Below, piece by piece: positions 35,607 to 64,000 of a stretch of 64,000 nt of DNA. The translations under genes were made by a program, and so were the position numbers. The stretch spans positions 3,076 to 67,075 of the forward strand of contig JAEOTZ010000001.1 in the NCBI GenBank assembly GCA_016839585.1, given 5' to 3'. Below the pieces are notes generated by a model. The model was given only the letters and a program-made list of their open reading frames with translations, had not been told where the DNA came from and made no database searches. Numbering within the stretch: position 1 is the first letter of the stretch; every line of letters begins with the position of its first letter. Source of the DNA: Promethearchaeota archaeon. GTDB taxonomy: Archaea > Asgardarchaeota > Lokiarchaeia > Sigyniarchaeales > SOKP01.

Positions 35607-35616
35607 GGGAAAAGTA

Positions 35617-39407: not shown

Positions 39408-39448
39408 AAATCTCTGAGGAGATTATCTCTTTTAAAGATCTAGCGAAT

Positions 39449-39952
39449 CTATTCATTTGAATTTGATCTTTCTTTATTAGAGAACCTTTTAGTAAATTTT
39501 TCTTTCTGTTCATAATACCAATTTATATAATCATGCTGTCTTCTGTCTTCTTCACTTCCATGGGAAGGATACCAGATAAGATCTTTTTCTTGACACTCAA
39601 TACAATACCACGTCTCATGGAGGGGGATATATACCATATCTCTATCACTATGCGTGCATAGAGGGCACACACAAATAGATTTACTTAATGCACTGCGGAG
39701 CGAATGTTTTGTTCCTTCTAAATAGAACACTTCTTTCCGTTCTTCTGGAGTTAAATCTAGAATTGCACCGTATAGGCTAGAAAAAGTACTTAAAATATTA
39801 ATCTCATCATAAACAGCTCTTATTATAATTTCTCTAAGGTTATTTCTTATCTTTTTAAGTTGTTCATTGCGTATAATGACTCTTCGCTCATCTTTCATAA
39901 TTATAGTAAACCTATAGAAAAAAAAATATTTAAATAATGGGTCTTTGCTCAT
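39449..39952 (-). CDS. Hypothetical Cys-rich (zinc-finger-like) protein
   Basis: CVCPLC...H and WYCIEC motifs. The true start may be the internal MKDERR. Confidence 0.35.
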   Translation of the reverse strand: MSKDPLFKYFFFYRFTIIMKDERRVIIRNEQLKKIRNNLREIIIRAVYDEINILSTFSSLYGAILDLTPEERKEVFYLEGTKHSLRSALSKSICVCPLCTHSDRDMVYIPLHETWYCIECQEKDLIWYPSHGSEEDRRQHDYINWYYEQKEKFTKRFSNKERSNSNE

Positions 39953-39991
39953 CCTTTAAAATTAGAGAAAAGGTATGAAAAAAAAAAAAAT

Positions 39992-41593
39992 TTAAATAAT
40001 GGATAAATAACCACTATTTAATAGTTGATGCGTTCCCAAAAAGAGTCTATTTAAGATGTAAGAGTTTAAAATTGGTGCTGGTCTTCCTTTATTAATCCAT
40101 TCTTGGATTATATTTCTTATTTCTTGTTCTATATGACTCTCGGGAACATTTTTGAAGAACCTATCGATTACATAGTTGTTTCCGTCTTCATCAGTGAAAT
40201 ATTTGTTAATGAAATTAGCTATCCCATATTCAATCAAGAAATTCCGTCGTTTAAGATACTCCTGCCAATTATCTTCCCAATCTTTTACGTTGCATTTATA
40301 GTATTGAGGACATTCTAGACCAAAATTTAATCTATGTTGAATTAAATCTAAAATTAAATCTGTTTTTCCTTCAAGTTTACTATGATTCATATGCATAACA
40401 AGGGCTAATCTATTTACATCGATTGTGAGTTTATCATTAATAAAAATGTGATGTCTTTCAAAAGTAAAGGATTCCATAATGCTTGTTTTTTTGAAAGCTT
40501 CGGGTTCAATGGGATCAAGGTTTAGAACATTAAGACCTAAATCACGGATGATAAGCATTACTACATGAAACTTTATAGTATTAAAAACATACCAACTCGG
40601 ATGATAAACTCTAGGTAAAGTTGGATATAGATTTCGTTGTTCTATATACTTCCATACTTGCTCAAAAGTTTCTATATATTCTTCACTAGGTAATAGTGAA
40701 ATCAATTCTTTTAATAGATGCATCATACCATCCCATGAATATTCCCAACCTTTATTCAGTCTTCCAAATGTGTCATATTTTAACATTTTTTGAGCATGTT
40801 TTAAGAGGACTGGACCTTTCTTAGCTTTGGATAAGGCGAACCATATGTATAAGGTTAAATCATATTCAGGTTTAAAATAAGTAGTTCCTATATCATGTTT
40901 ATCACTGATGTATTTCTCATCAAAGGGGTTGCTAAATATAAAGTCTTCTATTAATTTTTTCACTTTACTTTTTATATTATCTAATGATTGTTGATCGACT
41001 TTCTTGATATCTCTAACTTTTTGAATAAAATCCTGGATAGTTAAAAAATGAATTTTGTACATAAAGCTGAAGAGTGTAGATTTAGTAAATCTACGGAATT
41101 CGAAATCACCTTTAATATGAGAATCTTTCAATGTTCTAGCTCTTTTAAAAAGAATCCTTGATAGATCAGTGTCGAAAACTCTAATATTGGGGAAATATCC
41201 TTTAATAATATCTTTTATATCATCAAAGAATTTTCTTTTAATGCTTTTTTCGACTGTAGATGAGTGAGAAGGCAAGTTTGTTTCGGTAGGAAAAGCGATG
41301 TTATAAAGATTTTGAAATTTGTTTTCAATTGTATTCCAAGAATCGATTAATAGATCTTTGTATCTCTCTGACAATCTAATATATAAATCATCAAAAGTTT
41401 TTTTCACTGGATAATGCGTTTTTAGTGAATTCTTTTTATCCTTTATCCAATTATAAGTGAAGCCAAGTTTGTTTGACAGTTCCATGTATGAGGGTCTTTC
41501 GAGAATGCGTTTTTGGAACATGATTTCTTTTAGATGGTCAACGAGTTCTATGTAAGCGTTTCTAATTTCGGGCAAATTTACTTGTTTGCTCAT
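39992..41593 (-). CDS. Hypothetical 533-aa protein
   Basis: Long clean ORF. Only a weak His-rich stretch (FERHHIF...HMNHSKLEG) was noted, and no family is assigned. Confidence 0.4.
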   Translation of the reverse strand: MSKQVNLPEIRNAYIELVDHLKEIMFQKRILERPSYMELSNKLGFTYNWIKDKKNSLKTHYPVKKTFDDLYIRLSERYKDLLIDSWNTIENKFQNLYNIAFPTETNLPSHSSTVEKSIKRKFFDDIKDIIKGYFPNIRVFDTDLSRILFKRARTLKDSHIKGDFEFRRFTKSTLFSFMYKIHFLTIQDFIQKVRDIKKVDQQSLDNIKSKVKKLIEDFIFSNPFDEKYISDKHDIGTTYFKPEYDLTLYIWFALSKAKKGPVLLKHAQKMLKYDTFGRLNKGWEYSWDGMMHLLKELISLLPSEEYIETFEQVWKYIEQRNLYPTLPRVYHPSWYVFNTIKFHVVMLIIRDLGLNVLNLDPIEPEAFKKTSIMESFTFERHHIFINDKLTIDVNRLALVMHMNHSKLEGKTDLILDLIQHRLNFGLECPQYYKCNVKDWEDNWQEYLKRRNFLIEYGIANFINKYFTDEDGNNYVIDRFFKNVPESHIEQEIRNIIQEWINKGRPAPILNSYILNRLFLGTHQLLNSGYLSII

Positions 41594-41898
41594 TTTATTA
41601 TCAACGTTTTTATTTTTTTTTCCATCCTTTGGGTTTTATCAGTCGCTATAATCGCGCAGACTGATGGGTAAGATTACAATAACGCGCAATCTTATAAAAT
41701 TAATATCAAAGTTTAATATATATATGTATTCCTCGAATAGACTGCTCTGTGAAGTTTAAATACTATTAAACTAGTTCATATTTAATTAAACCTCACTTTT
41801 CGTGTACACTTTTTAAATTTAGAAATCTTAGGTTTCGCTCGTTTTTATTACAAACAAGAAAAAGTGTAGTTTAAAAACTTTTAAACTGAAAAGTTATT

Positions 41899-42288
41899 GT
41901 GCTGTCAAAAAAGGAAATGAAGCAATTCTATCCTCATCTTATCTCGCGGATACTGTTATTTCTACGGCAACAGCGACATGTTAAAGGGGAGGTGCTTACA
42001 GAAGATCTTATTAAGAAGTTTAATAAATCGAAGAGTAGAATTTCTCAAGCTCTTTCTTTTTTAGCAAGTAAAGAATATATTGAGAGAAATTATGTTAATA
42101 ATTTTAATAATCAAGGATCCCGTCATAAGATTTCCCTTACTCCCAAGGGTTTAGAGATTACTGAAGCTATTCTAATGGAGGGATTAGATCCACTCGAGAA
42201 AAAGGTCATTGAAGCATTAAAAAACCGTTCTAATTATTTATGTAAAAATAAGGTGACTCCTACCGGGAACTCCCTACCTACGAGTTAA
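41899..42288 (+). CDS. Winged-helix (MarR/PadR-like) DNA-binding protein
   Basis: FNKSKSRISQALSFLASKEYIER looks like an HTH recognition helix followed by a wing. GTG start. Confidence 0.45.
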   Translation: MLSKKEMKQFYPHLISRILLFLRQQRHVKGEVLTEDLIKKFNKSKSRISQALSFLASKEYIERNYVNNFNNQGSRHKISLTPKGLEITEAILMEGLDPLEKKVIEALKNRSNYLCKNKVTPTGNSLPTS

Positions 42289-42389
42289 AATTATTATTAT
42301 TAATATTCATTTTTAAATTGGAATATTTCTTTTCAAGAATTTCTATAGTAGTGCCTTGGTTTTGTATTAGCTAATAGAAATTATTTATA

Positions 42390-43586
42390 TTATGACTCTA
42401 GATAATTAATTATCGAAGATATTATCTCAATTAAATCTAAATCAGAGGTAGAACTAAGTTGTTCTATTTTTAATCTTAATTTTCTAATAATAGGCAATTT
42501 ATCTTCTTCAATTTTAGTCGAATATAATAAATTCCTAAACATTTTTAGTGAATTTATATCTTTTTTATCTATTGCTTCACAAATCTCCGTAGAAATGCTC
42601 TCAAACTTTCCACATTTATATAAAATTAAAGCTATATCGTTTTTTTTATATCCCCTTTCATATAGCTTTTCGAAATTACTATAATTGATTTTTCTTATTA
42701 AACTTACAAGTTTAGGATTTAATACAATCATCCTGATAGTTCCTACAATTATTCTTATTATCTCATTATCTTTTCCTAAAATGTATTTATTTATAGTTTT
42801 AGCATAATCAGTTATTATATCAAGTTCATCTTCAAACATATCTTCTTTATATGAAATTTTCGCAAATTCATTGTGAATCTTATTTAACATTGGTATTAAA
42901 TTCATAGGAGATAATTGTGAATTCCTAATCATATCTAAATAATTAAAAATTAGTTCAAAATCGATTTTTTTCCTTTTTTGGGATCTTTCTTTCTCATTAA
43001 TATATAAATCTTCCTCTTCCTCTTCATCAATCATTCTAATGTAGTCACGTTCAATTATATTATTTGCACCTAATTTTTCATATCTTAGAGTGGCTTTTAA
43101 TTGAGCATAAATATTTCCTATTATACTTTCAACAGTTTTTTGTTCAGTTTCATCTAAATAACTATTATGAGCAATTTTATTTCTTAAATCATACAAATCT
43201 TCTAATTTTGATGTAATCCAAACTTCTTTAGGAAAATATTCTTTAAAGATTTCCCAATTGCTACTTATTATAGTTTTTAGATCTATTAAATCCGCGTAAA
43301 ATAGATCAGAATCCCCCCTTATAGATAACCATCTCTTAATTCTCTCTTCTTCTTTTCTATCATTAATTTTATCTTGAATTTTTTTATTCATATTTAGTTT
43401 TTTCCAATAATTTAAACCAAATTTAACCTTAGCTACATTTTCTATAAATAATCTGAAGAAATTCTCAAAAATGAAAAGATTATAATACGCCTCTACCATT
43501 TCTTTTCCTTTAAGGAAAATTTCAGTTGGTATTTCAATTTGAAACTTTTGTTTTAAATTCTTTTTTTTTATTAATTTTGGATTCAT
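42390..43586 (-). CDS. HEPN-domain protein (Swt1-like HEPN N-terminal domain plus unknown C-terminal half)
   Basis: FENFFRLFIENV helix and LRNKIAHN (R-x4-H) at about residue 155. Confidence 0.55.
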   Translation of the reverse strand: MNPKLIKKKNLKQKFQIEIPTEIFLKGKEMVEAYYNLFIFENFFRLFIENVAKVKFGLNYWKKLNMNKKIQDKINDRKEEERIKRWLSIRGDSDLFYADLIDLKTIISSNWEIFKEYFPKEVWITSKLEDLYDLRNKIAHNSYLDETEQKTVESIIGNIYAQLKATLRYEKLGANNIIERDYIRMIDEEEEEDLYINEKERSQKRKKIDFELIFNYLDMIRNSQLSPMNLIPMLNKIHNEFAKISYKEDMFEDELDIITDYAKTINKYILGKDNEIIRIIVGTIRMIVLNPKLVSLIRKINYSNFEKLYERGYKKNDIALILYKCGKFESISTEICEAIDKKDINSLKMFRNLLYSTKIEEDKLPIIRKLRLKIEQLSSTSDLDLIEIISSIINYLES

Positions 43587-43841
43587 AATTAGTTAATTCA
43601 AATTATAATTTTAAACAAATTGCTTTAAACAAATTGTAATGATTTATTAATGATTCATCAAAACTCAGTAACTTAATGCTTAATCCCATAATAATGTAAG
43701 TGTTTTATTAAGAGTAGTTTTTCCACACTTTGGACAATTTACATTATTAAATTTTTTTGTAAGATCCCAATCCATCATGCTAATATTTCTACTTCTACAA
43801 TCTGGACATGCATATTTTACTTATAAGAGGTTTCTTTTTTA

Positions 43842-44261
43842 TTAAAGATAATTAGTTATTTTATTATTAGTTTCTATGTCCTCTACATAGCGAAATGATT
43901 GTGGAGCATTAAAGTTGAGAAATATAGATTTAGGATCTATTGGGTTCTTGAAAAATTTTAGGTTAGAAATTTCTATAGCAAGTCCTTTTTCTTTTTGATT
44001 AAAATATTTGAAAAATTCAGCTTCACCAATCCCAGAAACATCCTTATATTTTTCCCATAATACCGTGGGGTGATCTTCGATAATGATATTTAATAAGAAT
44101 TTAGCTACGATTTTTTTCACTGGTGAGCTTGAATATATGTAAATCTTTTCAATTTTATCAAAATTCTTCTTATTACAAAATGATTTGCGAAACTCATATT
44201 TTTTTCTCCCTTTCTTTATTTCTTCTACATATTTCGGTTTAATTGAAAGTAAAACGTTCAT
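43842..44261 (-). CDS. ASCH (PUA-like) domain protein
   Basis: LSIKPKYVEEIKKGRKKYEFRK is the typical ASCH opening. Its own GGAGG SD lies 6 nt upstream, inside the preceding gene. The start overlaps the upstream stop by 23 nt. Confidence 0.6.
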   Translation of the reverse strand: MNVLLSIKPKYVEEIKKGRKKYEFRKSFCNKKNFDKIEKIYIYSSSPVKKIVAKFLLNIIIEDHPTVLWEKYKDVSGIGEAEFFKYFNQKEKGLAIEISNLKFFKNPIDPKSIFLNFNAPQSFRYVEDIETNNKITNYL

Positions 44262-45762
44262 TAATTCCTCCCTTTTCTTTAATAGATAAATACTTTTGAT
44301 GTTCTATCTCAGTAATCGATTGTGGACGTCCTTGAAGAATATTACTTTTTATCAATTCTTTATACGATATAGGATTTTTAAGATAGAAATGGTGGTTAAA
44401 TAATATTACTGTAATTGGCTTTTTTACTAATTTTTCTATTTCTGAAAGGGAATAAACTGTTCGCTTGCCAACTAAATTGAAAACATACTCTTTATTTGTT
44501 AGATCATATTCAACTTTCTCAACAACACCTAAAGAAACAAGTTCTTTCATATCTTTAGATCGATAGAAAAATACAATATCACCTGGAGCAATTTTTTTTG
44601 TTGAAGAATGAGTTAGATATGTTTTTCTTATCGTATTTCCTTCTATTAAAAATTCATTTAAAACTTCATTTATAGTTAGTTGTCCTCTTCTTGGAAAATC
44701 AGTAAACAAACGATTATGATATTTTGGTCTGATTGGAATTATGTGTTTTTTCACATTTTTCCCATCATAAAAATTAGGAAAATATATTTTTGAAATTTGA
44801 ACTGGTTCTATTGATTGGATCTCATCGTGGGAAATAAATAACTTTTTTACAAATACATCTTCAGGAATCTCAGACCATTCATGTTTAATGATTGCTTCTT
44901 TTTTAAAACCAAAATCTTCAATAAGAGCCACTAAAGGATCATTATCTTTGATAAAATGAGTTAGATATATCTCAGATCTATTATTTTTAAGGGCAAGGTT
45001 AATTGATAATTTAATGAATAACTCGCCAATTTTTTGACCAGTGTAAGAAACAACAATAGTAGCAATTTTTACTCTCTTCTTTTTTGGAAGTTTAGGTATA
45101 GATGCTATTTCCTCATTTTCAAATTTATAGATTAATACGGCTCCAAGCTTATTACCATTTCTATAATAAACCCAACAATTCCTACCATCTCTTGCTTTTT
45201 CATTAAACCAATCGTTAAATCTAGGATATTCTTCTCTCAAAATGTTAAAAATTGGGTCTAATACATTCAGACGAGACATTGATGTTGCTTTTAAAGCGTA
45301 TGGTCGTTTTATTTTTTCTTTAGGGATTTCTTTTTTAAAGAGACTAACCGCATCTAATATTGAGATAATTCTTTCAGAAAGGTCTAATTTTTTCGCTTTC
45401 TTATGTATTCCTATATCTTCTGTTACTAAGAAATTTACTGCATTATGATAAACAGCATATAAGAGATAATTATCTATTACATCATTAACATTTTTTGGCT
45501 TTCCTACAAGAGAAAGAAATTTTGAATTATCAGAAGGGTCGGGAAAATCTTCTAAAAGATTATAAGTCTTAAATTTCGAAAGCGTTATTTGTTTTCTCTT
45601 TTTATCTCGATCTCTATCAATATCTTCAATGGATTTTTGATGGAGGATGATTTTAATGTCTAATTGATTAAAAATTCTCATTAATATCTGTAGATCTTCA
45701 TCTATAATCTTGTTATCTTCTCTCCCAATAATGATATTTGTATCTAATAAAACTCTCATCAA
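44239..45762 (-). CDS. PIN - GNAT acetyltransferase - PUA-like (EVE/ASCH-like) three-domain fusion protein
   Basis: PIN: VLLDTNIII, DVIDNYLL, LVTEDIG. GNAT: IATIVVSYTGQKIGELFIKLSINLAL ... LIEDFGF. C-terminus: GDIVFFYRSKDMKELVSLGVVEKV, a PUA-like pattern. Confidence 0.6.
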   Translation of the reverse strand: MMRVLLDTNIIIGREDNKIIDEDLQILMRIFNQLDIKIILHQKSIEDIDRDRDKKRKQITLSKFKTYNLLEDFPDPSDNSKFLSLVGKPKNVNDVIDNYLLYAVYHNAVNFLVTEDIGIHKKAKKLDLSERIISILDAVSLFKKEIPKEKIKRPYALKATSMSRLNVLDPIFNILREEYPRFNDWFNEKARDGRNCWVYYRNGNKLGAVLIYKFENEEIASIPKLPKKKRVKIATIVVSYTGQKIGELFIKLSINLALKNNRSEIYLTHFIKDNDPLVALIEDFGFKKEAIIKHEWSEIPEDVFVKKLFISHDEIQSIEPVQISKIYFPNFYDGKNVKKHIIPIRPKYHNRLFTDFPRRGQLTINEVLNEFLIEGNTIRKTYLTHSSTKKIAPGDIVFFYRSKDMKELVSLGVVEKVEYDLTNKEYVFNLVGKRTVYSLSEIEKLVKKPITVILFNHHFYLKNPISYKELIKSNILQGRPQSITEIEHQKYLSIKEKGGINERFTFN

Positions 45763-46073
45763 ATACCCTTTTGACGTTTAAGATTTTTTCTTTTTAAATC
45801 AATTACTGAGCTTTTTTATTATATATTTAAATATGCGTTAAATTAATATTTAAATATTATGAGAATTTAATCAATTTTTTGAATTATTTAACGCAACTTG
45901 CCCAATGCTTACGACAAAAAAAGGATTTAACAAAATTAAGAAATAGTGGAGTATCATTTACAGAGGGATAATAAAGAAATCTCTATTTGTTAAAAAATAA
46001 GCCTATTAATTATTCCACTAGATTTAATTAAATTAAATGAAATTGAAAAAAAAAAAGGAATTAATTATTAATG

Positions 46074-46820
46074 TTAAAATTCTTTTCTTGGCTCATAATA
46101 TGTTTTCTCATAATCATAGTATTCAGAAATTTTATCCTTAAATCTAGGATATATTTCTATTAAATATTGGGTAAATTTTTGAAGATCTTCAGTAGAGGGG
46201 ACTTCTTCACGATTTATTATGTCATCTGCAAAGCGTTCTATTTTTTGAAGTAATCTTACATCATTATATTCAATAATTTTACAATAGTTTGTAAGCTCAA
46301 GGCTTTCTTTAAATTCATCAACAGAAGGATCAAGTATATCAGTTACATCAAAATAAAAACGTACTAATCTTTCATATACTTTATCCCAATATTCATAAAA
46401 TTGTTCAATCAACTGGGCATTTTTACCTAAATTCGTGAGAAATGGTTTTACAGGACGTTCGAATAATTTAGACAATAAGATTCTTGCTATAGAAGTATAG
46501 GCAAAAATTATGTCATACATAATTGGTTTCTTTTTTATTGAGTGATATACACCATTCCTTTTCGTATGAAATCTAGCAATATTATCAGTCATTTCTTTTG
46601 TTATATGTTGAGGTGCCTTCTCTCTAAAAATTTCAATTAATTTAGGGAATTTTATGAAATAATCAATATTGAGATATGTTCTTATGCAAAGTTCGACAGC
46701 ATTATCAATGTTAATCATAGCGATATGCAGATCAAATGGAGTCCCTTTTTCCATGTGGATTGTTCCATGTTTGATAAGTTTAATGATGTAATCAACGGGC
46801 TCGAAATCTGAATTACTCAT
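46074..46820 (-). CDS. HEPN-motif protein
   Basis: INIDNAVELCIRTYL helix and KRNGVYHS (R-x4-H). Confidence 0.45.
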   Translation of the reverse strand: MSNSDFEPVDYIIKLIKHGTIHMEKGTPFDLHIAMINIDNAVELCIRTYLNIDYFIKFPKLIEIFREKAPQHITKEMTDNIARFHTKRNGVYHSIKKKPIMYDIIFAYTSIARILLSKLFERPVKPFLTNLGKNAQLIEQFYEYWDKVYERLVRFYFDVTDILDPSVDEFKESLELTNYCKIIEYNDVRLLQKIERFADDIINREEVPSTEDLQKFTQYLIEIYPRFKDKISEYYDYEKTYYEPRKEF

Positions 46821-47101
46821 AATGAAAAAAATATCAAGTTTACTTCTTTCTTTACTTTATCTTTAAAAGGATTATTTATTTAAATTTTAACAATTTTTTT
46901 CATGTTATGCTGATGAGTCTTAGTTGAAGTAAAGTTAAATAAAAGCATATAAATTACATTTATTACATAATAATCAAAAAGAATTAAATAAATGAATGAT
47001 TTAAGGTCAAATACAGGGAAATATGGAAGATCTTAAATATATGGATTATTTATTTAAAGATAAGGTAAAATACAATTTATTAAAATCAAAAAGAGAAAAA
47101 A

Positions 47102-47662
47102 ATGGATAAAATATGGCAATTGCGATGGATGATTTCAATTATCTTGGTAATTATATCAATAATTATAGTTATATTCTCTGTATTTAATCTTTTCTTACTA
47201 TTGATAGTCCCTGTAATCTGGGCGCCTTCATTTTTTATTCTTGAGATGATGGTTATACCAAGATTCAAGGAGATTGAAGAGGAAGAGAAAAAAGGAGCTA
47301 TTGAACTTAAAAGATATGACCCTATAAAAAAAATCATAGAATTACTTGAAGAATATGAAGATCTAAAAGATGATGAAGTAAATGAAATTAAAACTACGCA
47401 AGAATTAGGCCAATTATTCCCTGAATTAATGTTAATAGGATTTGGGATGATTCGAGATACAATTAAAGATAATAATTATGAAATACATCTTACAAAAATT
47501 CCTTTTACAAAGCAATTTCTAATAAGACGTCTAAAATTAGGTAAGGAATTAGGACCTAAAGAAGTATATTATTCAAAAGGCTATTCCAGATTAGATTCAA
47601 ATGTTCAAGTATTAAACAATTTTATTGATTATCTTAAGGAAAGATTAGAGAAATTTCAGTAA
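47102..47662 (+). CDS. Membrane protein (two N-terminal TM helices) of unknown function
   Basis: ISIILVIISIIIVIFSVFNLFLLLIVPVIWAPSFFIL followed by a charged soluble domain. Confidence 0.4.
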   Translation: MDKIWQLRWMISIILVIISIIIVIFSVFNLFLLLIVPVIWAPSFFILEMMVIPRFKEIEEEEKKGAIELKRYDPIKKIIELLEEYEDLKDDEVNEIKTTQELGQLFPELMLIGFGMIRDTIKDNNYEIHLTKIPFTKQFLIRRLKLGKELGPKEVYYSKGYSRLDSNVQVLNNFIDYLKERLEKFQ

Positions 47663-48624: not shown

Positions 48625-48650
48625 AGTAAATACAATATAAATGATACTAT

Positions 48651-48674: not shown

Positions 48675-48718
48675 ATGAAAAAGTAGTTTAAAAAATTTTA
48701 TATAATTTATATCATAAT

Positions 48719-51276: not shown

Positions 51277-51279
51277 TCT

Positions 51280-57891: not shown

Positions 57892-58055
57892 AATTCCCGA
57901 TTTAAAAAGGAATAATTAAAAAATTAGTTTTATTCTAACTGAAGTTTTCAGTCTTTAGTTAAAATATAAAAGCAACTTAATTTAAATTTTTATTATGTTT
58001 TTATTGAATTTTCTTAGTAAATTAATATTCTTTGATAAAAATAGAATATATCTAT

Positions 58056-59078
58056 TTACTGGGAGTTATTTTGCTCAAGTTCTAAATATTCACCTAATGT
58101 GATATCTGGATTATTTTTATTCTTCCAAACCCTTGGTCCGCTATAATGTCCCCCAGAAACGAAAGCTGCGGCTCCTGAAGATGACCTAAATTCTTGATCT
58201 TCAGTTAGAAGATAGTTTCGTCCCTCTGTTTGCCTTAGGAGTATTCTTTCTTCAATTAATTTGGCTCTTCTTTCAAAAATTTTTTTTTTTTGCTTAGGAA
58301 AAGTATCCAGGTAATCTTCTACTATGATCGAGTCTTTAAGTACAACAAAACCCGTATCAGCACGGTACATAATGGCATTAGCTCCCCTTTCTGAACAAAT
58401 AAAGTAGTTTTTTTCATCCCCTTCATCAACTTTTATTTTTTCTTTTAATATAGAAATTCCAAGTTGTTCCAGAATGATTTTAATTTTAATAAAAAAATCA
58501 TATAAAATGTCTTTATCAATTAAATTTAATTTACCTGAATAGTTTTCAGTCTTGTTTAGAATCCGAAAATTATCCGATTTTCTTGCCTCTTGAATAATTT
58601 TTGCTTCAATTGCTTTTCTTAATGAATCTCCTATTCCCGCACCGCCTAGCTTTAGTGATTTTGAGAAGAAGAAGATTTCCGAAAGAAATTCCCATTCTTC
58701 ATTTAGAATTGTTTCTTCATCTATTTCCTTATAACTTCCAAAATGTTGTTTTATCCTTCCTTTAAAATTCCCTGTCTCACCAATATAGGCAATACCCTCT
58801 TTCACTCCTTCTATATCTTCTCCGAATAATATATAAACTCCATCGATATTTTCTGTTCTATTAACTATTTCGCCAACTATATCTTTCTTTTTCTCTTCTT
58901 CTATCTCAAAATCTAATTTCATATTATTTCTTAATAAATCTATGTAAAATTGACGATTTATTTTTATAACTTGTCCATCCCATCCATCAATGTCTAAAAA
59001 TTGAAGGCGATCATCTGAGAATGGTAAGTATGAACTAATTCTTGTGGAAATATTAATATCTGGAAACATAATTTTCAC
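58056..59078 (-). CDS. GIY-YIG nuclease domain protein with DUF4357-like C-terminal domain
   Basis: GVYILFG...IAYIGETGNFKGRIKQH (GIY-YIG); C-terminal FRSSSGAAAFVSGGHYSGPRVWKN (DUF4357-type). Confidence 0.6.
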   Translation of the reverse strand: MKIMFPDINISTRISSYLPFSDDRLQFLDIDGWDGQVIKINRQFYIDLLRNNMKLDFEIEEEKKKDIVGEIVNRTENIDGVYILFGEDIEGVKEGIAYIGETGNFKGRIKQHFGSYKEIDEETILNEEWEFLSEIFFFSKSLKLGGAGIGDSLRKAIEAKIIQEARKSDNFRILNKTENYSGKLNLIDKDILYDFFIKIKIILEQLGISILKEKIKVDEGDEKNYFICSERGANAIMYRADTGFVVLKDSIIVEDYLDTFPKQKKKIFERRAKLIEERILLRQTEGRNYLLTEDQEFRSSSGAAAFVSGGHYSGPRVWKNKNNPDITLGEYLELEQNNSQ

Positions 59079-59258
59079 AATTTATGTTATTTTGCCATAG
59101 TTTTGGTTAATAAAATAAATTCTAAATTAAAATTTTTAAATAGAATTGATTTCACACTAGTTATATAACTCATTATATTTATATTCAATTTTCTCCATTT
59201 TCAATAGATCTCCTAAATCAATTAATATCGAAAGACTAGAAGTATAATCTATTCATAA

Positions 59259-59798
59259 TTATGGATTTTTATCTTTATCATAAGCCCATATAGCTAGATC
59301 AACTTCTTGTGGATGCCATCCTAACTTATTAGCTAATTCTTTAATCTTTTTTAGATATTCTAAATATTGATTTATTGTATATGAGTCTCTTTCTTCAGAA
59401 AAAAGTTGCCTCCAAACCCTAAAGTCAATAACAGCATATTTTTCAGGAAAGCAAAGTGCAAGAATTGCTGATGCAATTCTAACATTAATTCCCCGAGGAA
59501 CCATAAGTGTTTTAATTTTAAGATAAGTTTCATAATCTCTATTGGTATGGGTGATCTTAAAAGCTAGTTTTGTAAAATTTTGAGCAATTTCATTAGTAAT
59601 TTCGATAAATCTCTTTTCTTTTTGCCTACCATATTGAGTTAATAATTTCCATTGTAGTATTTTATCAAGTTCTTTTAATTTCAAATAAAAAGGATCCCTT
59701 TCTTTCATAAGGCTTTTCAAAAATATCTTAATTCTTTGAGTTTTCTCATAATCCTCGGCCTTATGGCGATACTCCTTAATATCTTTTATTTCAATCAT
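59259..59798 (-). CDS. Hypothetical protein, possibly HhH / OGG-fold-like
   Basis: GINVRIASAILALCFPEKYAVIDFRVW resembles the helix-hairpin-helix segment of small OGG-fold proteins. Pattern match only. Confidence 0.3.
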   Translation of the reverse strand: MIEIKDIKEYRHKAEDYEKTQRIKIFLKSLMKERDPFYLKLKELDKILQWKLLTQYGRQKEKRFIEITNEIAQNFTKLAFKITHTNRDYETYLKIKTLMVPRGINVRIASAILALCFPEKYAVIDFRVWRQLFSEERDSYTINQYLEYLKKIKELANKLGWHPQEVDLAIWAYDKDKNP

Positions 59799-60021
59799 GA
59801 ATTACACATTTTAAATTTTTTATCACACTATTCTTTTTAAAAATTAAATTATATAACGAAAACCCGAATTATATTGTCAATCATCCATTTTTTCATGTGA
59901 ATTACAAGGTGTTTCAAAATTTTCAATTTCGCAAATACTTTAAATTTTTCTTATAGAGCAGTAATTATAGTCTTGGTTCAAATTTTGTGAAGTTTTAATT
60001 TCATCAAAAATTTTGAATTAT

Positions 60022-61119
60022 TTATAGGTTATTTTTAATGTAATAGTGAATACAAATAACTTTATGTTCTTTTTTTTCAATTCTAGGTTTCAGCAAAATT
60101 TTATGATTCCTAATTTTACTAGTATAAACTGAACTGTTCACCATTTCAAATCTATCAGGCATCTGATCTAAAATTGCAGCTATATTTTGAGCGGCTAATA
60201 TTGTCCTATCTCTGGCTAAAATATAAATAGAACTTATACCTTCCTCTTCACACTTGAAAACCCATTGAATATAAGGATCAAGATTTAGATCTCCAGTTTT
60301 AGTAAATACTTTACTATACCTACCAATCATAACAATGCTTATTTTGATGTTAGTACCACGAAAAGTTGGATTTATATCTTCTCCTGCTTTTCTATATGCA
60401 AATTCCTTAATTTTTTCAAAAAAAGATGTTGGTTCTTTAAAATATTCAATATTTGGAGGTTCTGGATAATATTTTAATCCATAATCCTTTATTTCCTTTA
60501 ATAAAATTCTTGTAAATACACCTCTCTCAGTTAATACTTCCAAAATATTGATATTTTCCTTTAATTTCTCATCTTCATCCAATTTAGGTGATAAATGATA
60601 ATCAATGAAATAATTTAATTTAGATTTGTTCTGATTAAAAATTAAATTCTTAACAAACTGCCAATCAATTGAATTCATTAGGTGAGGTTCAATGTAACGT
60701 CGGGAATTAGGTATTAATATATCTTTTATGCTAAACATTGATGCTCGTACAAAGTTTTCATCCTGATTTTTTTTATCTTTTAATACTACTATTACTTTAT
60801 CTTCTTTATGTTCAACTCTTTCCTTCTCAAAACTGAAAGGATTGATAAATTTTATAGAGGTTTTAAAAGGTATTAAACCTTCACATTCCTTATTTATTTC
60901 CTTTCTGTAAGTATTCATCTTAGATTGAATATCTTTAGAGATATGTATTTTTTTAAATTTTTTACCTGTAAAAGAAAACCACCTTGCTAAGATTGATTCC
61001 CATTTTTCTACTTTTTCTGGGTGTGTCAGGAAATAAATTAGTAAAATTGCTAAAACACCTGTAATTGACCAGGAAGCTATTAAAAGATTTATTAAATCTA
61101 TGAATTCATTAAATATCAT
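60022..61119 (-). CDS. N-terminally membrane-anchored hypothetical protein
   Basis: One TM (LLIASWSITGVLAILLIYFL) plus a 330-aa unrecognised domain. Overlaps the upstream small ORF by 11 nt. Confidence 0.4.
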   Translation of the reverse strand: MIFNEFIDLINLLIASWSITGVLAILLIYFLTHPEKVEKWESILARWFSFTGKKFKKIHISKDIQSKMNTYRKEINKECEGLIPFKTSIKFINPFSFEKERVEHKEDKVIVVLKDKKNQDENFVRASMFSIKDILIPNSRRYIEPHLMNSIDWQFVKNLIFNQNKSKLNYFIDYHLSPKLDEDEKLKENINILEVLTERGVFTRILLKEIKDYGLKYYPEPPNIEYFKEPTSFFEKIKEFAYRKAGEDINPTFRGTNIKISIVMIGRYSKVFTKTGDLNLDPYIQWVFKCEEEGISSIYILARDRTILAAQNIAAILDQMPDRFEMVNSSVYTSKIRNHKILLKPRIEKKEHKVICIHYYIKNNL

Positions 61120-61360
61120 CCTTTTTTACTTCCTCATTAAGTTTTAAATAATTTTCATAACAGGATTCCTTATTACATAGAAAAATAAATTTGTTCTTCT
61201 TGATCATTAAAGCACAAATATTATCAATTTTTATAGTCTCATTACAACAATAACATTTGATATTACCTTCTTTGAAATCATCAGAAAGTCCAATTTTTAT
61301 TAAGAATTGCTCTAAGTCATCTAGATATAAAACATCTAAAGTTTTTTTCTTAATGCTCAT
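61109..61360 (-). CDS. Small Cys-rich protein
   Basis: 83 aa with CYCC...C...C-x4-C. Translationally coupled to 60022..61119. Confidence 0.35.
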   Translation of the reverse strand: MSIKKKTLDVLYLDDLEQFLIKIGLSDDFKEGNIKCYCCNETIKIDNICALMIKKNKFIFLCNKESCYENYLKLNEEVKKDDI

Positions 61361-61613
61361 ATTTTATACACTAAAATAAATTCTTCAGAAAGGATTACAA
61401 TATTATATATTTTTGTCAATTATATTATTATTTAATACTTCTTAGTATTTTAATTAAATGATATTGAAAGATGAAAAAATCGAACAGGACATTATCATTT
61501 TAATTCTTTCATCTTTGAACTATTCTTGGAGTAGTAGAATCAATATCTCCCATATCTTTTAGAAATTGGCAGTACTTAACTTATATCTCCTATCCTTTCA
61601 TTAGGTTATTTCT

Positions 61614-63374
61614 TTAAAATCTCTTGTGGTTACAAGAACCACAATAAGGGCAAATTTTATGTTTAGTCTCAATTATTGAAAAGCATTCAGGGCATTTTCT
61701 ATAATTTTCTGGATTAAAGCCGTCTTTGGCATTCTCATTACCCTCCAATAAGTTGTCAATAAAAAATTTGATCTCTGCCGCATCTCTTATATCTTCGTCT
61801 TCATTTTCGGTGAACTGGGTTTTTTGGGAACCTTTCTCAGATTTATCAATTTTTTTAATCGACTTTTCTTTATTTTTCATCATTTCAGAATCTTTTTCTT
61901 TAAATTTTTTCAGAATTAATTTATTCTTTCTATTCACATCTCCTCTTTTTAACCAGTATCTTTCGACAAGGGGGACCCAAAGCAGAAATGGTCTTTTAAT
62001 AGAATTAGTACGGACGATGCATTCCCCTTCTTCTAATATAGAGAGATAGTCTTCTTTTTCTTCATCCATATTTAATAGTTCACAAATGAAACTCCTCTGC
62101 ATATGATTTTTGAAAGTGATCAGAACACCACAGTTAGCTAATATTTCTTCACTGACATTAGGTCGAGTGGCAATTGAAATTAAACATTCTCCAGTGCCTC
62201 TTTGTAAAAGTGCTATATCTTCCAGGTATGAAGTCAACTTTGTTTGGAGAGACAGATCTTTTGGGGCAAAGTATTGAGTATCTTCGATTATTGTAAGATG
62301 CTTTATACCCTTAAAATTATAGGCTCCGTATGTTAAATTTTTATCCCATAAATATTTTAGAACCATATTGAGAAAGAACAAGGCATCTTCCTTTTCTCCA
62401 CCTAAACGGATAATTGAACTTAAATCAAAAAGAATGTTCTTGTCAAATAAATCTTTTATTTTCAGTTTATATCGTGTGGCAAAGATTGACTTTAATGGTC
62501 CTAGTGAAAATCTCCTTATTCTATTTTGAATGCTAACAAGACTCTGATGCAGCATAGGAATTTGATTTTTCTGGTTTTTCAAGTATTCTTTGCATTGATC
62601 AAAGAAGCCTTTCCAGCTCTGATGTTGTGAATTTCTACACACATTTGTTAAAATATCTACTAGCACTTTTTCCATTTGTGGTGAAAATTCTGCGTTTGCA
62701 TCCAAAAATTGCCCACTTTGTAAAATATCAAATACTCTTTCAGCATGAATTTCAGGATTAGCCCCTTCAGGATTAAATATATTGATTGAAAAGTTTTCCC
62801 CTGGTCTTATTATTAACAAGTCCTCGATAATGTCTTGTAAGAAAATATATTCTCCTTTAAATTCTGCTAATAAAAAAGGTATATCATAACGTTTTTTGAA
62901 ATCAATTAAAAAATTTTGTACAAAATTGCTTTTACCCGAACCTGTAATCCCACATACGAACATGTGCCTTTCTAAATCTTTTAGTGAAAGGAAATATTTA
63001 TGACTCTTTCTTTTCTTCTTCATAACCTTTCCTATTTCAATATTTCCTTTTCTTGATTTATATCTTGAAGGAATTTCTAAGTTAATAACATCTTGATCGA
63101 AAATATAGAAGGATTTAATAAAAAACATTAATGAAGAAAGTAAAAATAATAGAGAAAGACCAATTAACATCGAGTTTTTGTCAGATTCTGAATTTTGAGA
63201 AGGATAGAATAAAGCTAAGTTAAAAAGAAAGATTGAACCCATAATAATCAAATAAATAAAGATAATGTATTTAGATTTCTGTAATTCATATTCCTTTTTC
63301 CGTGAAATGTAAAAAATGATGGTGTATATTAACAGAATTAGGAATAATGTAAGGGAAATTTCGAAAGGGATCAT
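61614..63374 (-). CDS. Membrane-anchored HerA/FtsK-superfamily P-loop ATPase with C-terminal zinc ribbon
   Basis: Three N-terminal TM helices. Walker A VCGITGSGKS, Walker B-like HLTIIEDTQ, ATRPN sensor-like motif. An acidic linker is followed by CPEC...CPYCGS. Confidence 0.6.
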   Translation of the reverse strand: MIPFEISLTLFLILLIYTIIFYISRKKEYELQKSKYIIFIYLIIMGSIFLFNLALFYPSQNSESDKNSMLIGLSLLFLLSSLMFFIKSFYIFDQDVINLEIPSRYKSRKGNIEIGKVMKKKRKSHKYFLSLKDLERHMFVCGITGSGKSNFVQNFLIDFKKRYDIPFLLAEFKGEYIFLQDIIEDLLIIRPGENFSINIFNPEGANPEIHAERVFDILQSGQFLDANAEFSPQMEKVLVDILTNVCRNSQHQSWKGFFDQCKEYLKNQKNQIPMLHQSLVSIQNRIRRFSLGPLKSIFATRYKLKIKDLFDKNILFDLSSIIRLGGEKEDALFFLNMVLKYLWDKNLTYGAYNFKGIKHLTIIEDTQYFAPKDLSLQTKLTSYLEDIALLQRGTGECLISIATRPNVSEEILANCGVLITFKNHMQRSFICELLNMDEEKEDYLSILEEGECIVRTNSIKRPFLLWVPLVERYWLKRGDVNRKNKLILKKFKEKDSEMMKNKEKSIKKIDKSEKGSQKTQFTENEDEDIRDAAEIKFFIDNLLEGNENAKDGFNPENYRKCPECFSIIETKHKICPYCGSCNHKRF

Positions 63375-63488
63375 TAATCTTATTTATTAAGAGATTTTTA
63401 AAAACTACACTAAATACAATATGCTCATTTTAGTAATTGAAAAGAGTGTAATTCTATCAATGGAGAATAAAACCAAAAAAAAAAAGGT

Positions 63489-63740
63489 TTATTGATTGGT
63501 TGTTTTCGCCAGTCTTGTTTCCAAGAGGCATGGACGTTCATCGAAGAAGGTCCAATACTTATGGAGACTGGCAAAGCGGTGTCCGCAGTGGCAGGAGAGT
63601 CTGCTTTCTTCGGGCGTTATCGGGGTCTCGATAAGACGCTCCAGAGATCGCACTTTTCTACACTTAGGACAGTAAATCCAATATTGCGCTTTTTTTATTA
63701 CTTCTCGGATTTTGATTTTGATCACATCCATTGATATCAT
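63489..63740 (-). CDS. Small zinc-ribbon protein, GC-rich
   Basis: CPKC...CHCGH. It is much GC-richer than its surroundings, which is why a mirror ORF appears on the plus strand. Confidence 0.4.
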   Translation of the reverse strand: MISMDVIKIKIREVIKKAQYWIYCPKCRKVRSLERLIETPITPEESRLSCHCGHRFASLHKYWTFFDERPCLLETRLAKTTNQ

Positions 63741-63880
63741 TACAAAAATAATTCTGAATTTAATAATTTAAATTGCCACATTTAAGATTTTGAAAGGGAA
63801 ATCCTAATCGACTTTTTATATTTTTCTTTAAATTGATCTATTTTAATAGGATATAAAAGGACTAAAAAGAGGTTATATAA

Positions 63881-64000
63881 GTGCGAGTTATTAAGGAAGG
63901 ACGTCTAAAGTCTACAAGAGAGTCTCTAATGTTTTTTAAGGACCATTTTCGAGAATTAGGAAAAGTAAAGTACATAATTCTTTATTACGCAGAACGGGAA
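63881..64000 (+). CDS. Partial ORF running off the window (unknown; weak resemblance to a recombinase N-terminus)
   Basis: GTG start with AGAGGT 7-12 nt upstream; 40 codons open to the window end (VRVIKEGRLKSTRESLMFFKDHFRELGKV...). Confidence 0.25.
   Translation, partial: MRVIKEGRLKSTRESLMFFKDHFRELGKVKYIILYYAERE

What the first reader, a model, noticed from the sequence alone, without database searches (positions are those of the whole stretch)
39408..64000. Accessory island of at least 24 kb replaces the expected rpoD/r-protein genes downstream of rps11
Seen: after rps11 there is no rpoD, rpl18e, rpl13 or rps9. Instead 22 ORFs follow, 19 of them on the minus strand. They have long AT-rich spacers and patchy GC-rich genes (48154..48624 and 63489..63740). 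They include a type I R-M system, a GIY-YIG protein, four HEPN-motif and two PIN-domain proteins, GNAT/ASCH, a CX5R phosphatase and a membrane HerA-like ATPase, and more than half have no recognisable function. Established: defence genes cluster in islands, and type I R-M loci are frequent anchors. Inference: this is a defence or mobile island integrated at or next to the r-protein operon. The right boundary is not in the window.
Basis: partly seen in the sequence, partly recalled or inferred. Interest (0 to 1): 0.7.

Follow-up and report, generated by a model that had tools for sequence, protein, structure and literature searches.

The report
Defence-gene island in an Asgard archaeon
A 19-kb cluster of anti-virus genes sits in an Asgard (Loki-type) archaeal chromosome, in a slot between two conserved genes where related genomes carry quite different genes; it is a real but fairly ordinary defence island, and it has not displaced any ribosomal or RNA polymerase genes.

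Summary
After rps11 there is no rpoD, rpl18e, rpl13 or rps9. There are 21 ORFs, 18 on the minus strand. They include a complete type I R-M system, a complete PDC-M11 pair, PDC-S14 (GIY-YIG), HEPN and PIN proteins, a CX5R phosphatase and a membrane HerA-like ATPase.

The framing needs three corrections.

1. Nothing was replaced. No RpoD homologue lies within about 10 kb of rps11 in any of roughly 100 related Asgard loci.
2. The first three genes after rps11 (39449-42288) are conserved and syntenic in relatives, so they are not part of the island.
3. The right boundary is inside the window. The HerA-like gene (61614-63374) is a conserved flank.

The variable segment is about 42.29-61.63 kb (16 ORFs). 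It lies between the convergent 3' ends of a wHTH gene and the HerA-like gene. Five genomes have both flanks and carry 3.7-19.3 kb of unrelated cargo, much of it defence-like; a sixth has the whole stretch deleted. I found no integrase, tRNA, att repeats or viral genes. The likely mechanism is cassette turnover by recombination at a chromosomal hotspot. Defence islands and hotspots are known kinds. The conserved Lokiarchaeial hotspot was not mentioned in the two Asgard and archaeal defence surveys I searched.

The parts
35112..36144 (+). rps13 and rps4, the conserved left context
   Evidence: Pfam S13 and S4 labels on identical genes. 95-97% nucleotide identity to L001 and L014.
36447..38714 (-). 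755-aa NosD/beta-helix membrane-anchored protein inserted between rps4 and rps11. It is a second, separate variable site.
   Evidence: NosD and Beta_helix labels (L002). Absent from L001, L004, L005 and L014, where rps4 and rps11 abut.
39012..39407 (+). rps11
   Evidence: Pfam Ribosomal_S11. An identical protein occurs on 7 public contigs.
39449..39952 (-). Conserved zinc-ribbon protein. The probable true start gives 149 aa (39449-39898). Convergent with rps11. Not island.
   Evidence: A homologue lies 70-262 nt after rps11 on the opposite strand in 32 of 72 informative Asgard loci. No Pfam or PHROG family.
39992..41593 (-). Conserved 533-aa protein of unknown function, found only in Asgard archaea. 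Not island.
   Evidence: Syntenic in 12 of 59 loci. The family has only 68 members among 5.8 billion proteins, all at least 52% identical. Invariant E379-R-H-H382, N386, N394 and H404. The AF2 model is all-alpha and has no PDB match.
41899..42288 (+). Conserved winged-helix (wHTH) gene. Its 3' end is the left edge of the variable segment.
   Evidence: Weak HTH_34 and DUF6293_C hits. Syntenic in 8 of 53 loci. Homology to L001 and L014 stops at 42264, and to L029 at 42290.
42291..61630 (.). The variable defence island proper: about 19.3 kb and 16 ORFs, between the convergent 3' ends of the wHTH and HerA-like genes
   Evidence: No island gene has a counterpart in the equivalent segment of 9 other genomes.
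42390..43586 (-). HEPN (Swt1-like) protein matching PDC-M34B. No M34A partner was found.
   Evidence: PADLOC PDC-M34B 5.8e-30. Pfam HEPN_Swt1 7e-6. RNKIAH motif read from the sequence.
43842..45762 (-). PDC-M11 two-gene module: M11A (PIN-GNAT-EVE, 44239-45762) and M11B (ASCH-like, 43842-44261), with overlapping genes
   Evidence: PADLOC 8e-145 and 5e-48. The same 2.0-kb module (43837-45862) occurs at 78% and 68% nucleotide identity in unrelated contexts in L119, L120 and L121.
46074..46820 (-). 248-aa protein with an RNGVYH (RNxxxH) motif; a possible HEPN
   Evidence: Motif read from the sequence only. No significant family hit.
48154..48624 (+). Small dual-specificity-phosphatase-like protein with a CX5R motif; locally GC-rich
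   Evidence: Pfam DSPc 4e-7, below the cut-off. HCNRGESR read from the sequence. GC 0.378.
48719..49687 (-). 322-aa protein with an RNIIVH motif; a possible HEPN
   Evidence: Motif only. No family hit.
49978..52342 (-). PIN_4 protein (49978-51276) and RiboL-PSP-type HEPN protein (51572-52342)
   Evidence: Pfam PIN_4 2e-12 and HEPN_RiboL-PSP 3e-5.
52969..57891 (-). Type I restriction-modification operon hsdR-hsdS-hsdM, with a half-size HsdS
   Evidence: Pfam. PADLOC MTase_I 6e-193, Specificity_I 4.5e-40 and REase_I 1.2e-51.
58056..59078 (-). GIY-YIG plus DUF4357 protein = PDC-S14, a single-gene candidate
   Evidence: PADLOC 2e-45. Pfam DUF4357 2e-13 and GIY-YIG 7e-5.
59259..61360 (-). Three strain-specific genes of unknown function (179, 365 and 83 aa) at the right end of the island
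   Evidence: No homologue in any related locus. The only family hit is an uncharacterised PHROG for the 179-aa protein.
61614..63374 (-). Membrane HerA/FtsK-like ATPase with a C-terminal zinc ribbon. It is the conserved right flank.
   Evidence: Pfam DUF87 9e-10. Orthologues of 68-75% aa identity sit on the far side of the variable segment in L057, L062, L096/L113 and L116. Nucleotide homology starts at 61631-61639.
63489..63740 (-). 83-aa zinc-ribbon ORF upstream of the HerA-like gene, GC-rich; part of the right flank module
   Evidence: Homologues of 36-53% sit next to the HerA-like gene in L057 and L096. GC 0.437.

Best explanation
The window comes from an Asgard archaeon of the Loki/Promethearchaeota type. 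About 42.29-61.63 kb is a chromosomal defence island. It occupies a lineage-conserved hotspot between the convergent 3' ends of a small wHTH gene and a membrane HerA-like ATPase gene, three genes downstream of rps13-rps4-rps11.

The cargo is a set of independent modules:
- A complete type I R-M system. Its half-size HsdS should dimerise and read a symmetric bipartite site (inferred).
- The two-gene PDC-M11 module (PIN-GNAT-EVE plus an ASCH-like protein).
- The single-gene PDC-S14 (GIY-YIG nuclease).
- Several HEPN and PIN proteins, predicted RNases of the abortive-infection or toxin type.
- A small phosphatase and four unknown genes.

Together these would give layered innate immunity: cutting of unmodified invading DNA, backed by nucleases that stop or kill infected cells. 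This function is inferred from family membership; nothing has been tested.

The cargo is gained, lost and swapped as cassettes, most likely by homologous or illegitimate recombination in and next to the conserved flanks, not by an integrase-bearing element. It did not displace rpoD or r-protein genes, because that linkage does not exist in this lineage.
For: Identity of the modules.

Taxon.

Conserved left flank. The 149-aa, 533-aa and wHTH genes are syntenic with rps11.

Conserved right flank. HerA-like orthologues sit beyond the variable segment in L057 (4.1 kb of cargo), L062 (about 6.5 kb), Lokiarchaeum GC14_75 contig L096/L113 (10.9 kb) and L116 (3.7 kb).

Sharp junctions at 42264-42290 and 61631-61639.

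No shared cargo genes among 9 genomes.

Cargo elsewhere is also defence-like:
- L014: an endonuclease domain matching PADLOC's 'Effector' model (E about 1e-13) and AbiTii.
- L029: a fused type I methylase, a nitrilase domain, and a two-ORF gene I read by eye as an IS630-type transposase (no family search was run on it).
- L047: PD-T7-4 (2e-11) and weak PDC-M41A/B matches (2.5e-8 and 1e-4).
- L027: three type II methylases.
- GC14_75: AbiTii and HNH_5.
- L118: TIR and CHAT.

Dispensability. L112 carries an in-frame fusion of HerA-like residues about 118-135 to residues 112-162 of the 149-aa protein, which deletes the whole intervening stretch.

Modularity. The PDC-M11 pair recurs as a 2.0-kb unit in three unrelated contexts.

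Recombination footprints. Identity to L001 falls from about 97% to 63-89% just after rps11 and recovers to 90-98% before the junction. L014 has a roughly 330-nt direct repeat of the wHTH 3' end flanking a two-gene insertion. L062 has two wHTH copies.

No mobile-element machinery: no tRNA, no long flanking repeats, no integrase or transposase family, no viral families, and no relatives in viral contigs.

Composition. GC3 of island genes equals that of the flanks (0.204 against 0.218, p = 0.55), so the cargo looks native to low-GC archaea. The nearest PDC-M11A relatives are Asgard archaea, followed by methanogens.

Not an artefact. Short-read contigs from several runs match the window at 100% and span the left junction (L009, 39879-52650).
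Against: No function has been tested. The PDC systems are untested 'guilt-by-embedding' candidates.

Four of the sixteen island genes have no defence signal. Two of the 'HEPN' calls rest on a motif alone.

The HerA-like flank is seen in only 5 of about 11 genomes that have the left flank. In the others the 10 kb I could fetch may simply be too short.

The HerA-like gene could itself be cargo or part of a defence system.

The right junction in this strain is covered by independent contigs for only 87 nt (L008 ends at 61701).

The recombination mechanism is inferred from footprints in other genomes. The window's own island has no flanking repeats.
Confidence: 0.8

Rival explanations
1. One reading: one accessory or mobile island of at least 24 kb starts directly after rps11 (39408), runs off the window, and has replaced rpoD-rpl18e-rpl13-rps9.
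For: The canonical archaeal S13-S4-S11-RpoD cluster (my own knowledge of other archaea) is not present here. Gene content after rps11 is largely non-housekeeping.
Against: No RpoD lies near rps11 in about 100 related loci. The query was validated against PDB RpoD and Rpb3. Genes at 39449-42288 are conserved and syntenic. The HerA-like gene is a conserved flank.
Confidence: 0.04
2. The island is an integrated mobile element (integrative plasmid, provirus or integrative-conjugative element), and the HerA/FtsK-like ATPase is its DNA-translocation motor.
For: HerA/FtsK ATPases are common in mobile elements; there are weak PHROG hits to FtsK/SpoIIIE-like families. The partial wHTH duplications in L014, L001 and L062 resemble att-site duplication.
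Against: There is no integrase, transposase, replication, capsid or conjugation family among the 21 ORFs. There is no tRNA and no direct repeats flank the island. The HerA-like gene stays in place while the cargo changes completely. No relatives occur in 2.9 million viral contigs.
Confidence: 0.08
3. The conserved flanks (149-aa zinc-ribbon protein, 533-aa protein, wHTH, HerA-like ATPase and 83-aa zinc-ribbon protein) form one Asgard-specific multi-gene system, and the defence genes are 'embedded' inside it. This would parallel the genes embedded in Hma, BREX, DISARM and type I R-M systems.
For: The two flanks are linked by paralogy. In GC14_75 a copy of the 149-aa protein's C-terminal half and an 83-aa homologue sit directly upstream of the HerA-like gene. 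Both flanks co-occur in five genomes. HerA-type ATPases take part in known defence systems (weak PADLOC HerA hits). Embedding is a documented pattern.
Against: No family or structural match gives the 533-aa or 149-aa protein a function. The 149-aa gene occurs next to rps11 in many genomes that lack the 533-aa gene (32 loci against 12). The flank genes are on different strands, so they are not one operon. Co-occurrence could not be tested beyond 10-kb flanks.
Confidence: 0.12
4. Assembly or binning artefact: foreign defence genes were joined to an Asgard r-protein contig.
For: Independent short-read contigs break repeatedly at 39829/39879, 52650/52810 and 61701.
Against: L009 spans 39879-52650 at 100% identity, across the left junction. 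GC3 and overall composition match the flanks. The same flank-cargo-flank layout occurs in four other assemblies. The nearest homologues of PDC-M11A are Asgard archaea.
Confidence: 0.03

Closest known systems
Defence islands (Makarova et al. 2011, cited in PMC12988326)
   Same: R-M, nuclease and toxin-type genes are tightly clustered. Content differs between related genomes. Many neighbouring genes have unknown function.
   Different: Nothing essential. This example is in an Asgard archaeon. Of the two surveys I read, the Asgard one (PMC11291487) never uses 'defense island' or 'hotspot'. The archaeal one (PMC12988326) mentions defence islands only in general terms, and the passages I read do not describe this locus.
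Core-gene-flanked defence hotspots of bacteria, such as the E. coli immigration control region with cassette-like hsd/mcr variation and the core defence hotspots of Pseudomonas aeruginosa (my own knowledge, not checked here)
   Same: Conserved chromosomal genes on both sides, unrelated defence cargo of very different length between them, a type I R-M system among the cargo, and an 'empty' or deleted variant.
   Different: The flanks are Asgard-specific genes of unknown function next to an r-protein cluster. No integrase or satellite phage is involved. Only five genomes show both flanks.
Type I restriction-modification systems with a half-size HsdS
   Same: HsdR (ResIII helicase plus the EcoEI-type C-terminal domain), HsdM (N6_Mtase plus HsdM_N) and HsdS are adjacent on one strand.
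   Different: HsdS is 240 aa with a single target-recognition domain instead of two. Dimerisation and a symmetric target are inferred, not shown.
PADLOC phage defence candidates PDC-M11, PDC-S14 and PDC-M34 (Payne et al., bioRxiv 10.1101/2024.01.29.577857)
   Same: Full-length, very strong profile matches. Like the founding examples, they lie next to a type I R-M system.
   Different: The candidates were defined from RefSeq genomes by embedding and remain untested. PDC-M34 is incomplete here, with only the B component.
Integrated mobile elements of Asgard archaea (for example PMC11529989)
   Same: An accessory, strain-variable segment that carries defence genes.
   Different: No integrase, att sites, replication genes or viral genes were found here.

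Membership tests
Defence island | Several recognised defence systems co-located within a few kb | tested here: met
   Type I R-M, PDC-M11 (A and B), PDC-S14 and a PDC-M34B-like HEPN, plus PIN and HEPN proteins, within 19 kb.
Defence island | Variable presence or content among related genomes | tested here: met
   None of the 16 island genes is found at the equivalent site in 9 related genomes. L112 has the region deleted.
Core-flanked defence hotspot | The same conserved genes on both sides in several genomes, with different cargo between them | tested here: met
   The wHTH/533-aa/149-aa/rps11 flank and the HerA-like flank both occur in the window, L057, L062, L096/L113 and L116, with 3.7-19.3 kb of cargo.
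Type I restriction-modification system | hsdR, hsdM and hsdS all present and adjacent | tested here: met
   55138-57891, 52969-54435 and 54419-55141, on the same strand with overlapping ends.
Type I restriction-modification system | HsdS with two target-recognition domains | tested here: not met
   240 aa with one Methylase_S stretch, residues 11-169. This is a half-size S subunit.
Type I restriction-modification system | Methylation and restriction activity | not testable with these tools
   Needs methylome data or biochemistry.
PDC-M11 (PADLOC candidate) | Both the M11A and M11B genes present and adjacent | tested here: met
   8e-145 and 5e-48, overlapping genes. The same pair occurs in L119-L121.
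PDC-M34 (PADLOC candidate) | Both the A and B components present | tested here: not met
   Only M34B models match (42390-43586). No ORF matches an M34A model.
PDC-S14 (PADLOC candidate) | Single GIY-YIG/DUF4357 gene matching the profile over most of its length | tested here: met
   2e-45, residues 79-330 against profile positions 63-293 of 301.
Integrative mobile element / genomic island in the strict sense | Integrase or other recombinase gene | tested here: not met
   No recombinase, integrase or transposase family among the ORFs of 39.4-64 kb.
Integrative mobile element / genomic island in the strict sense | Flanking direct repeats (att) and/or a tRNA target | tested here: not met
   No tRNA. 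There are only short, imperfect AT-rich repeats, and none brackets the island. No second wHTH copy is present in the window.
Canonical archaeal S13-S4-S11-RpoD-L18e-L13-S9 cluster | rpoD directly downstream of rps11 | tested here: not met
   No RpoD in the window or in about 100 related loci within about 10 kb of rps11.
HEPN superfamily (the four proteins claimed) | Significant match to a HEPN profile plus the Rx4-6H motif | tested here: inconclusive
   Two proteins have near-threshold Pfam HEPN hits plus the motif, and one of these also has a strong PDC-M34B match. The other two have the RNxxxH motif only.

The most novel reading that the evidence does not exclude
The conserved genes that bracket the variable segment may not be passive landmarks. 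They may form an Asgard-specific system that creates or exploits the hotspot. The genes are the 533-aa protein with an invariant ERHH...N...N...H motif, the wHTH protein, the two zinc-ribbon proteins and the membrane HerA-like ATPase. One version: a new multi-gene defence or DNA-handling system in which other defence genes are embedded. Another version: a nuclease-driven cassette-exchange site.
Probability: 0.12. Interest if true: 0.65.

Novelty: new member of a known kind. Interest (0 to 1): 0.4.

Why it matters
Asgard archaea are the closest known relatives of eukaryotes, and their immune repertoire is being mined for the roots of eukaryotic immunity. This locus shows that Loki-type genomes organise defence genes as bacteria do: in a fixed chromosomal slot whose cargo turns over rapidly.

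The slot has recognisable conserved flanks (rps11, the 149-aa, 533-aa and wHTH genes on one side, the HerA-like gene on the other). It could therefore be used as a handle to harvest uncharacterised Asgard defence genes from metagenomes. The four unknown genes here, and the unknown cargo in L057 and L062, are candidates.

It also corrects an expectation: the S11-RpoD linkage typical of other archaea is absent from every Asgard locus sampled here.

Tried and rejected
- Extending the contig. Exact-protein look-ups for the HerA-like gene, the last 83-aa ORF and a left-side flavodoxin found nothing. The sequence beyond 64000 stays unseen.
- att sites. Repeat search on 39-64 kb found only short AT-rich matches.
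- tRNA and Rfam scans found nothing.
- Viral or plasmid origin. PHROGs gave no hallmark genes. Two scans of viral contigs were empty.
- Low-threshold Pfam on the unknown island proteins gave only noise.
- A roughly 45-nt conserved intergenic motif looked as if it might mark cassette borders, because it flanks cargo genes in L001 and L014. The window's island has no copy of it. The window's two copies flank a metabolic gene, and the motif has no consensus RNA structure. I therefore rejected it as an explanation for this island.
- Foreign composition. Overall GC is slightly lower in the island (0.285 against 0.321, p = 0.002), but GC3 is the same, so there is no sign of recent import from a distant donor.
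- A literature search for the source accessions found nothing.


Full report
**What the window is**

The sequence has about 30% GC. Its rps11 protein is identical or nearly identical to proteins on contigs from Asgard metagenome-assembled genomes labelled Promethearchaeota, Hodarchaeota, Hermodarchaeota and similar. Short-read contigs from runs SRR14699978-83 match the window at 100%. They cover 31689-39829, 39879-52650 and 52810-61701, so the same strain has been assembled independently. The left 39 kb encodes ordinary metabolic genes: HdrA-like, MvhD/FlpD, flavodoxin, isochorismatase, aminotransferase, an MFS transporter and a CoA ligase.

**Checking the observation**

Downstream of rps11 there are 21 non-overlapping ORFs of at least 80 aa, 18 of them on the minus strand. 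None matches an RNA polymerase or ribosomal protein family.

Pfam and PADLOC confirm most of the listed content:

| Coordinates | Gene | Evidence |
|---|---|---|
| 52969-57891 | Complete type I R-M operon | HsdM 1e-70 (Pfam) and 6e-193 (PADLOC); HsdS 240 aa with one target-recognition domain; HsdR with ResIII and EcoEI_R_C |
| 58056-59078 | GIY-YIG plus DUF4357 | PDC-S14, 2e-45 |
| 44239-45762 and 43842-44261 | PIN-GNAT protein and overlapping ASCH-like partner | PDC-M11A 8e-145, PDC-M11B 5e-48 |
| 42390-43586 | Swt1-type HEPN | PDC-M34B, 6e-30 |
| 49978-51276 | PIN_4 protein | 2e-12 |
| 51572-52342 | RiboL-PSP-type HEPN | 3e-5 |
| 48154-48624 | DSPc-like protein with HCNRGESR motif | 4e-7, below the cut-off |
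| 61614-63374 | DUF87/HerA protein with N-terminal membrane helices and a C-terminal zinc ribbon | 9e-10 |

Two further 'HEPN' proteins (46074-46820 and 48719-49687) have only the RNxxxH motif.

**Was rpoD replaced?**

I wrote the Saccharolobus RpoD sequence from memory. I validated it against the PDB: 578 bits to Rpo3/RpoD chains, and 1e-27 to euryarchaeal RpoD and eukaryotic Rpb3. A tblastn search with it found nothing, even at E = 10, in the window, in 80 Asgard genome loci holding up to 10 kb on each side of rps11, in 18 metagenome loci, or in six further loci.

Clustering all ORFs within 4 kb downstream of rps11 in the 80 loci gave no RpoD-like cluster. The rps11-rpoD linkage is therefore absent across this lineage, and nothing was displaced. 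One caveat: I had no Asgard RpoD as a positive control.

**Where the island starts**

The three genes after rps11 are conserved. All are in the window's order and orientation.

| Gene | Coordinates | Found in |
|---|---|---|
| Zinc-ribbon protein (149 aa from its probable true start) | 39449-39952 | 32 of 72 informative loci, always 70-262 nt after rps11 on the opposite strand |
| 533-aa protein | 39992-41593 | 12 of 59 loci |
| wHTH protein | 41899-42288 | 8 of 53 loci |

Amino-acid identities range from 40 to 92%. DNA homology to the two closest relatives, L001 (GCA_019058095.1) and L014, ends at 42264. Homology to L029 ends at 42290, in the last codons of the wHTH gene. After that point every genome has different genes.

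**Where the island ends**

The HerA-like protein has orthologues of 68-75% identity located beyond the variable segment in four other genomes.

| Genome | Cargo between the flanks |
|---|---|
| Window | 19.3 kb |
| Lokiarchaeum GC14_75 contig (L096 joined to L113 by a 100% overlap) | 10.9 kb |
| L062 | about 6.5 kb |
| L057 | 4.1 kb |
| L116 | 3.7 kb |

Nucleotide homology to L097, L057, L096 and L062 begins at window 61631-61639, about 20 nt inside the 3' end of the gene. An 83-aa zinc-ribbon ORF upstream of the HerA-like gene is also conserved in L057 and L096. The three genes at 59259-61360 have no counterpart anywhere, so they are cargo.

The variable segment is therefore about 42.29-61.63 kb. 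It holds 16 ORFs and lies between two convergent 3' ends. The right boundary is inside the window.

**Is the slot a defence hotspot?**

Cargo in other genomes at the same position is also largely defence-like.

| Genome | Cargo |
|---|---|
| L014 | An endonuclease domain matching PADLOC's 'Effector' model (1e-13); AbiTii |
| L029 | Fused type I methylase with specificity domain; nitrilase domain; a two-ORF gene I read by eye as an IS630-type transposase (no family search was run on it) |
| L047 | PD-T7-4 (2e-11); weak PDC-M41A/B matches (2.5e-8 and 1e-4) |
| L027 | Three type II methylases, plus a protein I read by eye as a DpdA-like transglycosylase |
| GC14_75 | AbiTii-like and HNH_5 proteins |
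| L118 | TIR and CHAT proteins |
| L057, L062 | Mostly unknown genes |

L112, another Lokiarchaeum GC14_75 contig, carries a 67-aa ORF. Its first part matches HerA-like residues about 118-135 and its remainder matches residues 112-162 of the 149-aa protein. It lies directly next to rps11. That is a deletion of everything in between, and it shows the whole stretch is dispensable.

**How cargo moves**

I found no integrase, transposase, tRNA, bracketing repeats, viral protein families or relatives in viral contigs. What I did find are recombination footprints.

- Identity to L001 is about 97% through rps11, drops to 63-89% over 39.3-41.4 kb and returns to 90-98% before the junction. This is a mosaic of the kind expected if flanks are exchanged together with cargo.
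- L014 has a roughly 330-nt direct repeat (86% identical), made of the wHTH 3' end plus downstream sequence, flanking a two-gene insertion.
- L062 has two wHTH paralogues, and L001 has an 83-nt wHTH fragment inside its cargo.
- The PDC-M11 pair behaves as a self-contained cassette. Window 43837-45862 matches L119 and L120 at 78% and L121 at 68%, in three unrelated neighbourhoods.

Island genes have the same GC3 as flanking genes. The nearest PDC-M11A relatives are Asgard archaea, followed by methanogens. The cargo therefore circulates among low-GC archaea; there is no sign of recent import from distant donors. The recombination mechanism is inferred, not shown.

**How the island likely works**

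By family membership, the type I system would methylate host DNA and cut unmodified invaders. Its single-domain HsdS implies a dimer that reads a symmetric site (inference from established knowledge of truncated HsdS proteins). The GIY-YIG, PIN and HEPN proteins are predicted nucleases of the abortive-infection or toxin type. PDC-M11 combines PIN, GNAT and EVE domains with an ASCH-like partner, which suggests sensing or modification of nucleic acid. All PDC systems are untested candidates defined by 'guilt by embedding'.

**The flanking genes**

The 533-aa protein belongs to a family of only 68 members among 5.8 billion sequences, all of them from Asgard or sediment samples. It has invariant ERHH, N, N and H residues. 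Its AF2 model is all-alpha, has low confidence at that motif, and has no PDB match.

In GC14_75, a paralogue of the 149-aa protein's C-terminal half and an 83-aa homologue sit directly upstream of the HerA-like gene. This links the two flanks by paralogy. It leaves open, at low probability, that the flanks form one system in which the cargo is embedded.

**Comparison with what is known**

Defence islands, and hotspots flanked by core genes, are established in bacteria and archaea (and my own knowledge). Asgard archaea are already known to carry many defence systems: 2,610 complete systems, with Lokiarchaeales averaging 5.8 per genome and R-M the most common type. That Asgard survey never uses the words 'defense island' or 'hotspot'. 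The broader archaeal survey mentions defence islands only in general terms, and the passages I read do not describe this locus.

**Verdict**

This is a genuine defence island of a known kind, and its content was correctly spotted. It is smaller than claimed, at about 19 kb rather than at least 24 kb. It is bounded on both sides within the window, and it is not a replacement of rpoD or r-protein genes. The modest novelty is the conserved Lokiarchaeial hotspot and its uncharacterised flanking genes.

Noticed in passing
window 36447-38714 (-): A 755-aa NosD/beta-helix repeat protein with a C-terminal membrane anchor is inserted between rps4 and rps11. Close relatives L001, L004, L005 and L014 have rps4 and rps11 abutting. 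L112 has a different 372-aa repeat surface protein at the same site, and L003 and L113 have a 286-aa gene there. The rps4|rps11 junction is thus a second variable slot, this one for surface proteins. Homologues of the beta-helix protein sit next to HerA-like genes in L040, L107 and L110.
   Followed up: partly
window 5343-5401 and 6615-6665 (+): A roughly 45-nt intergenic motif (AAAGGTAAATTCAGAGTCTGATTTCAATGAAAATTCC) is 88-98% conserved across more than 25 divergent Asgard loci (42 copies, 38 of them on the rps11 strand). A TTTAAATA box often lies about 10 nt upstream. In the window its two copies flank the isochorismatase gene. In L001 three copies separate cargo genes. It has no Rfam match and no consensus secondary structure. 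Its function is unknown: it could be a promoter or leader, an sRNA 5' end, or a recombination site.
   Followed up: partly
L112 1406-1609 (contig LAZR01001730.1): A 67-aa in-frame fusion ORF joins HerA-like residues about 118-135 to residues 112-162 of the rps11-adjacent zinc-ribbon protein. This is a clean deletion of the equivalent of window ~39.6-63.0 kb in a Lokiarchaeum GC14_75 contig.
   Followed up: yes
L014 5045-5420 and 7677-8010: A roughly 330-nt direct repeat (86% identical), made of the wHTH 3' end plus downstream intergenic sequence, brackets a two-gene insertion (390 and 240 aa). L062 has two full wHTH paralogues (5644-5997 and 7546-7902). L001 has an 83-nt wHTH fragment at 16878-16960.
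   Followed up: partly
window 39992-41593 (-): This 533-aa protein belongs to a tiny Asgard-only family (68 members, all at least 52% identical). It has no Pfam, PHROG or PADLOC match. E379-R-H-H382, N386, N394 and H404 are invariant. The AF2 model is all-alpha with no PDB neighbour. The gene always sits beside the variable slot.
   Followed up: partly
window 63489-63740 (both strands): A GC-rich (0.437) 83-aa zinc-ribbon ORF has a nearly full-length antisense ORF. In the 94%-identical contig L095 this 254-nt stretch is replaced by 211 nt of unrelated sequence, while both sides still align.
   Followed up: partly
window 39829/39879, 52650/52810 and 61701: Independent short-read assemblies of several runs all break at the same three places, although the sequence there is not repetitive. 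This may reflect co-existing strain variants. The 61701 break is 87 nt inside the HerA-like gene, close to the island's right junction.
   Followed up: no
L096 3-1218 and 9363-11710: Lokiarchaeum GC14_75 carries a full three-gene module (C-terminal half of a 149-aa-protein paralogue, an 83-aa homologue and the HerA-like gene) and, 8 kb upstream, a degraded second copy of it.
   Followed up: no
window 59259-59798 (-): This 179-aa island protein matches an uncharacterised phage protein family (phrog_24538, 4e-16). It also has a weak, non-significant hit to an OGG-like DNA glycosylase C-terminus. It lies next to the GIY-YIG gene.
   Followed up: no
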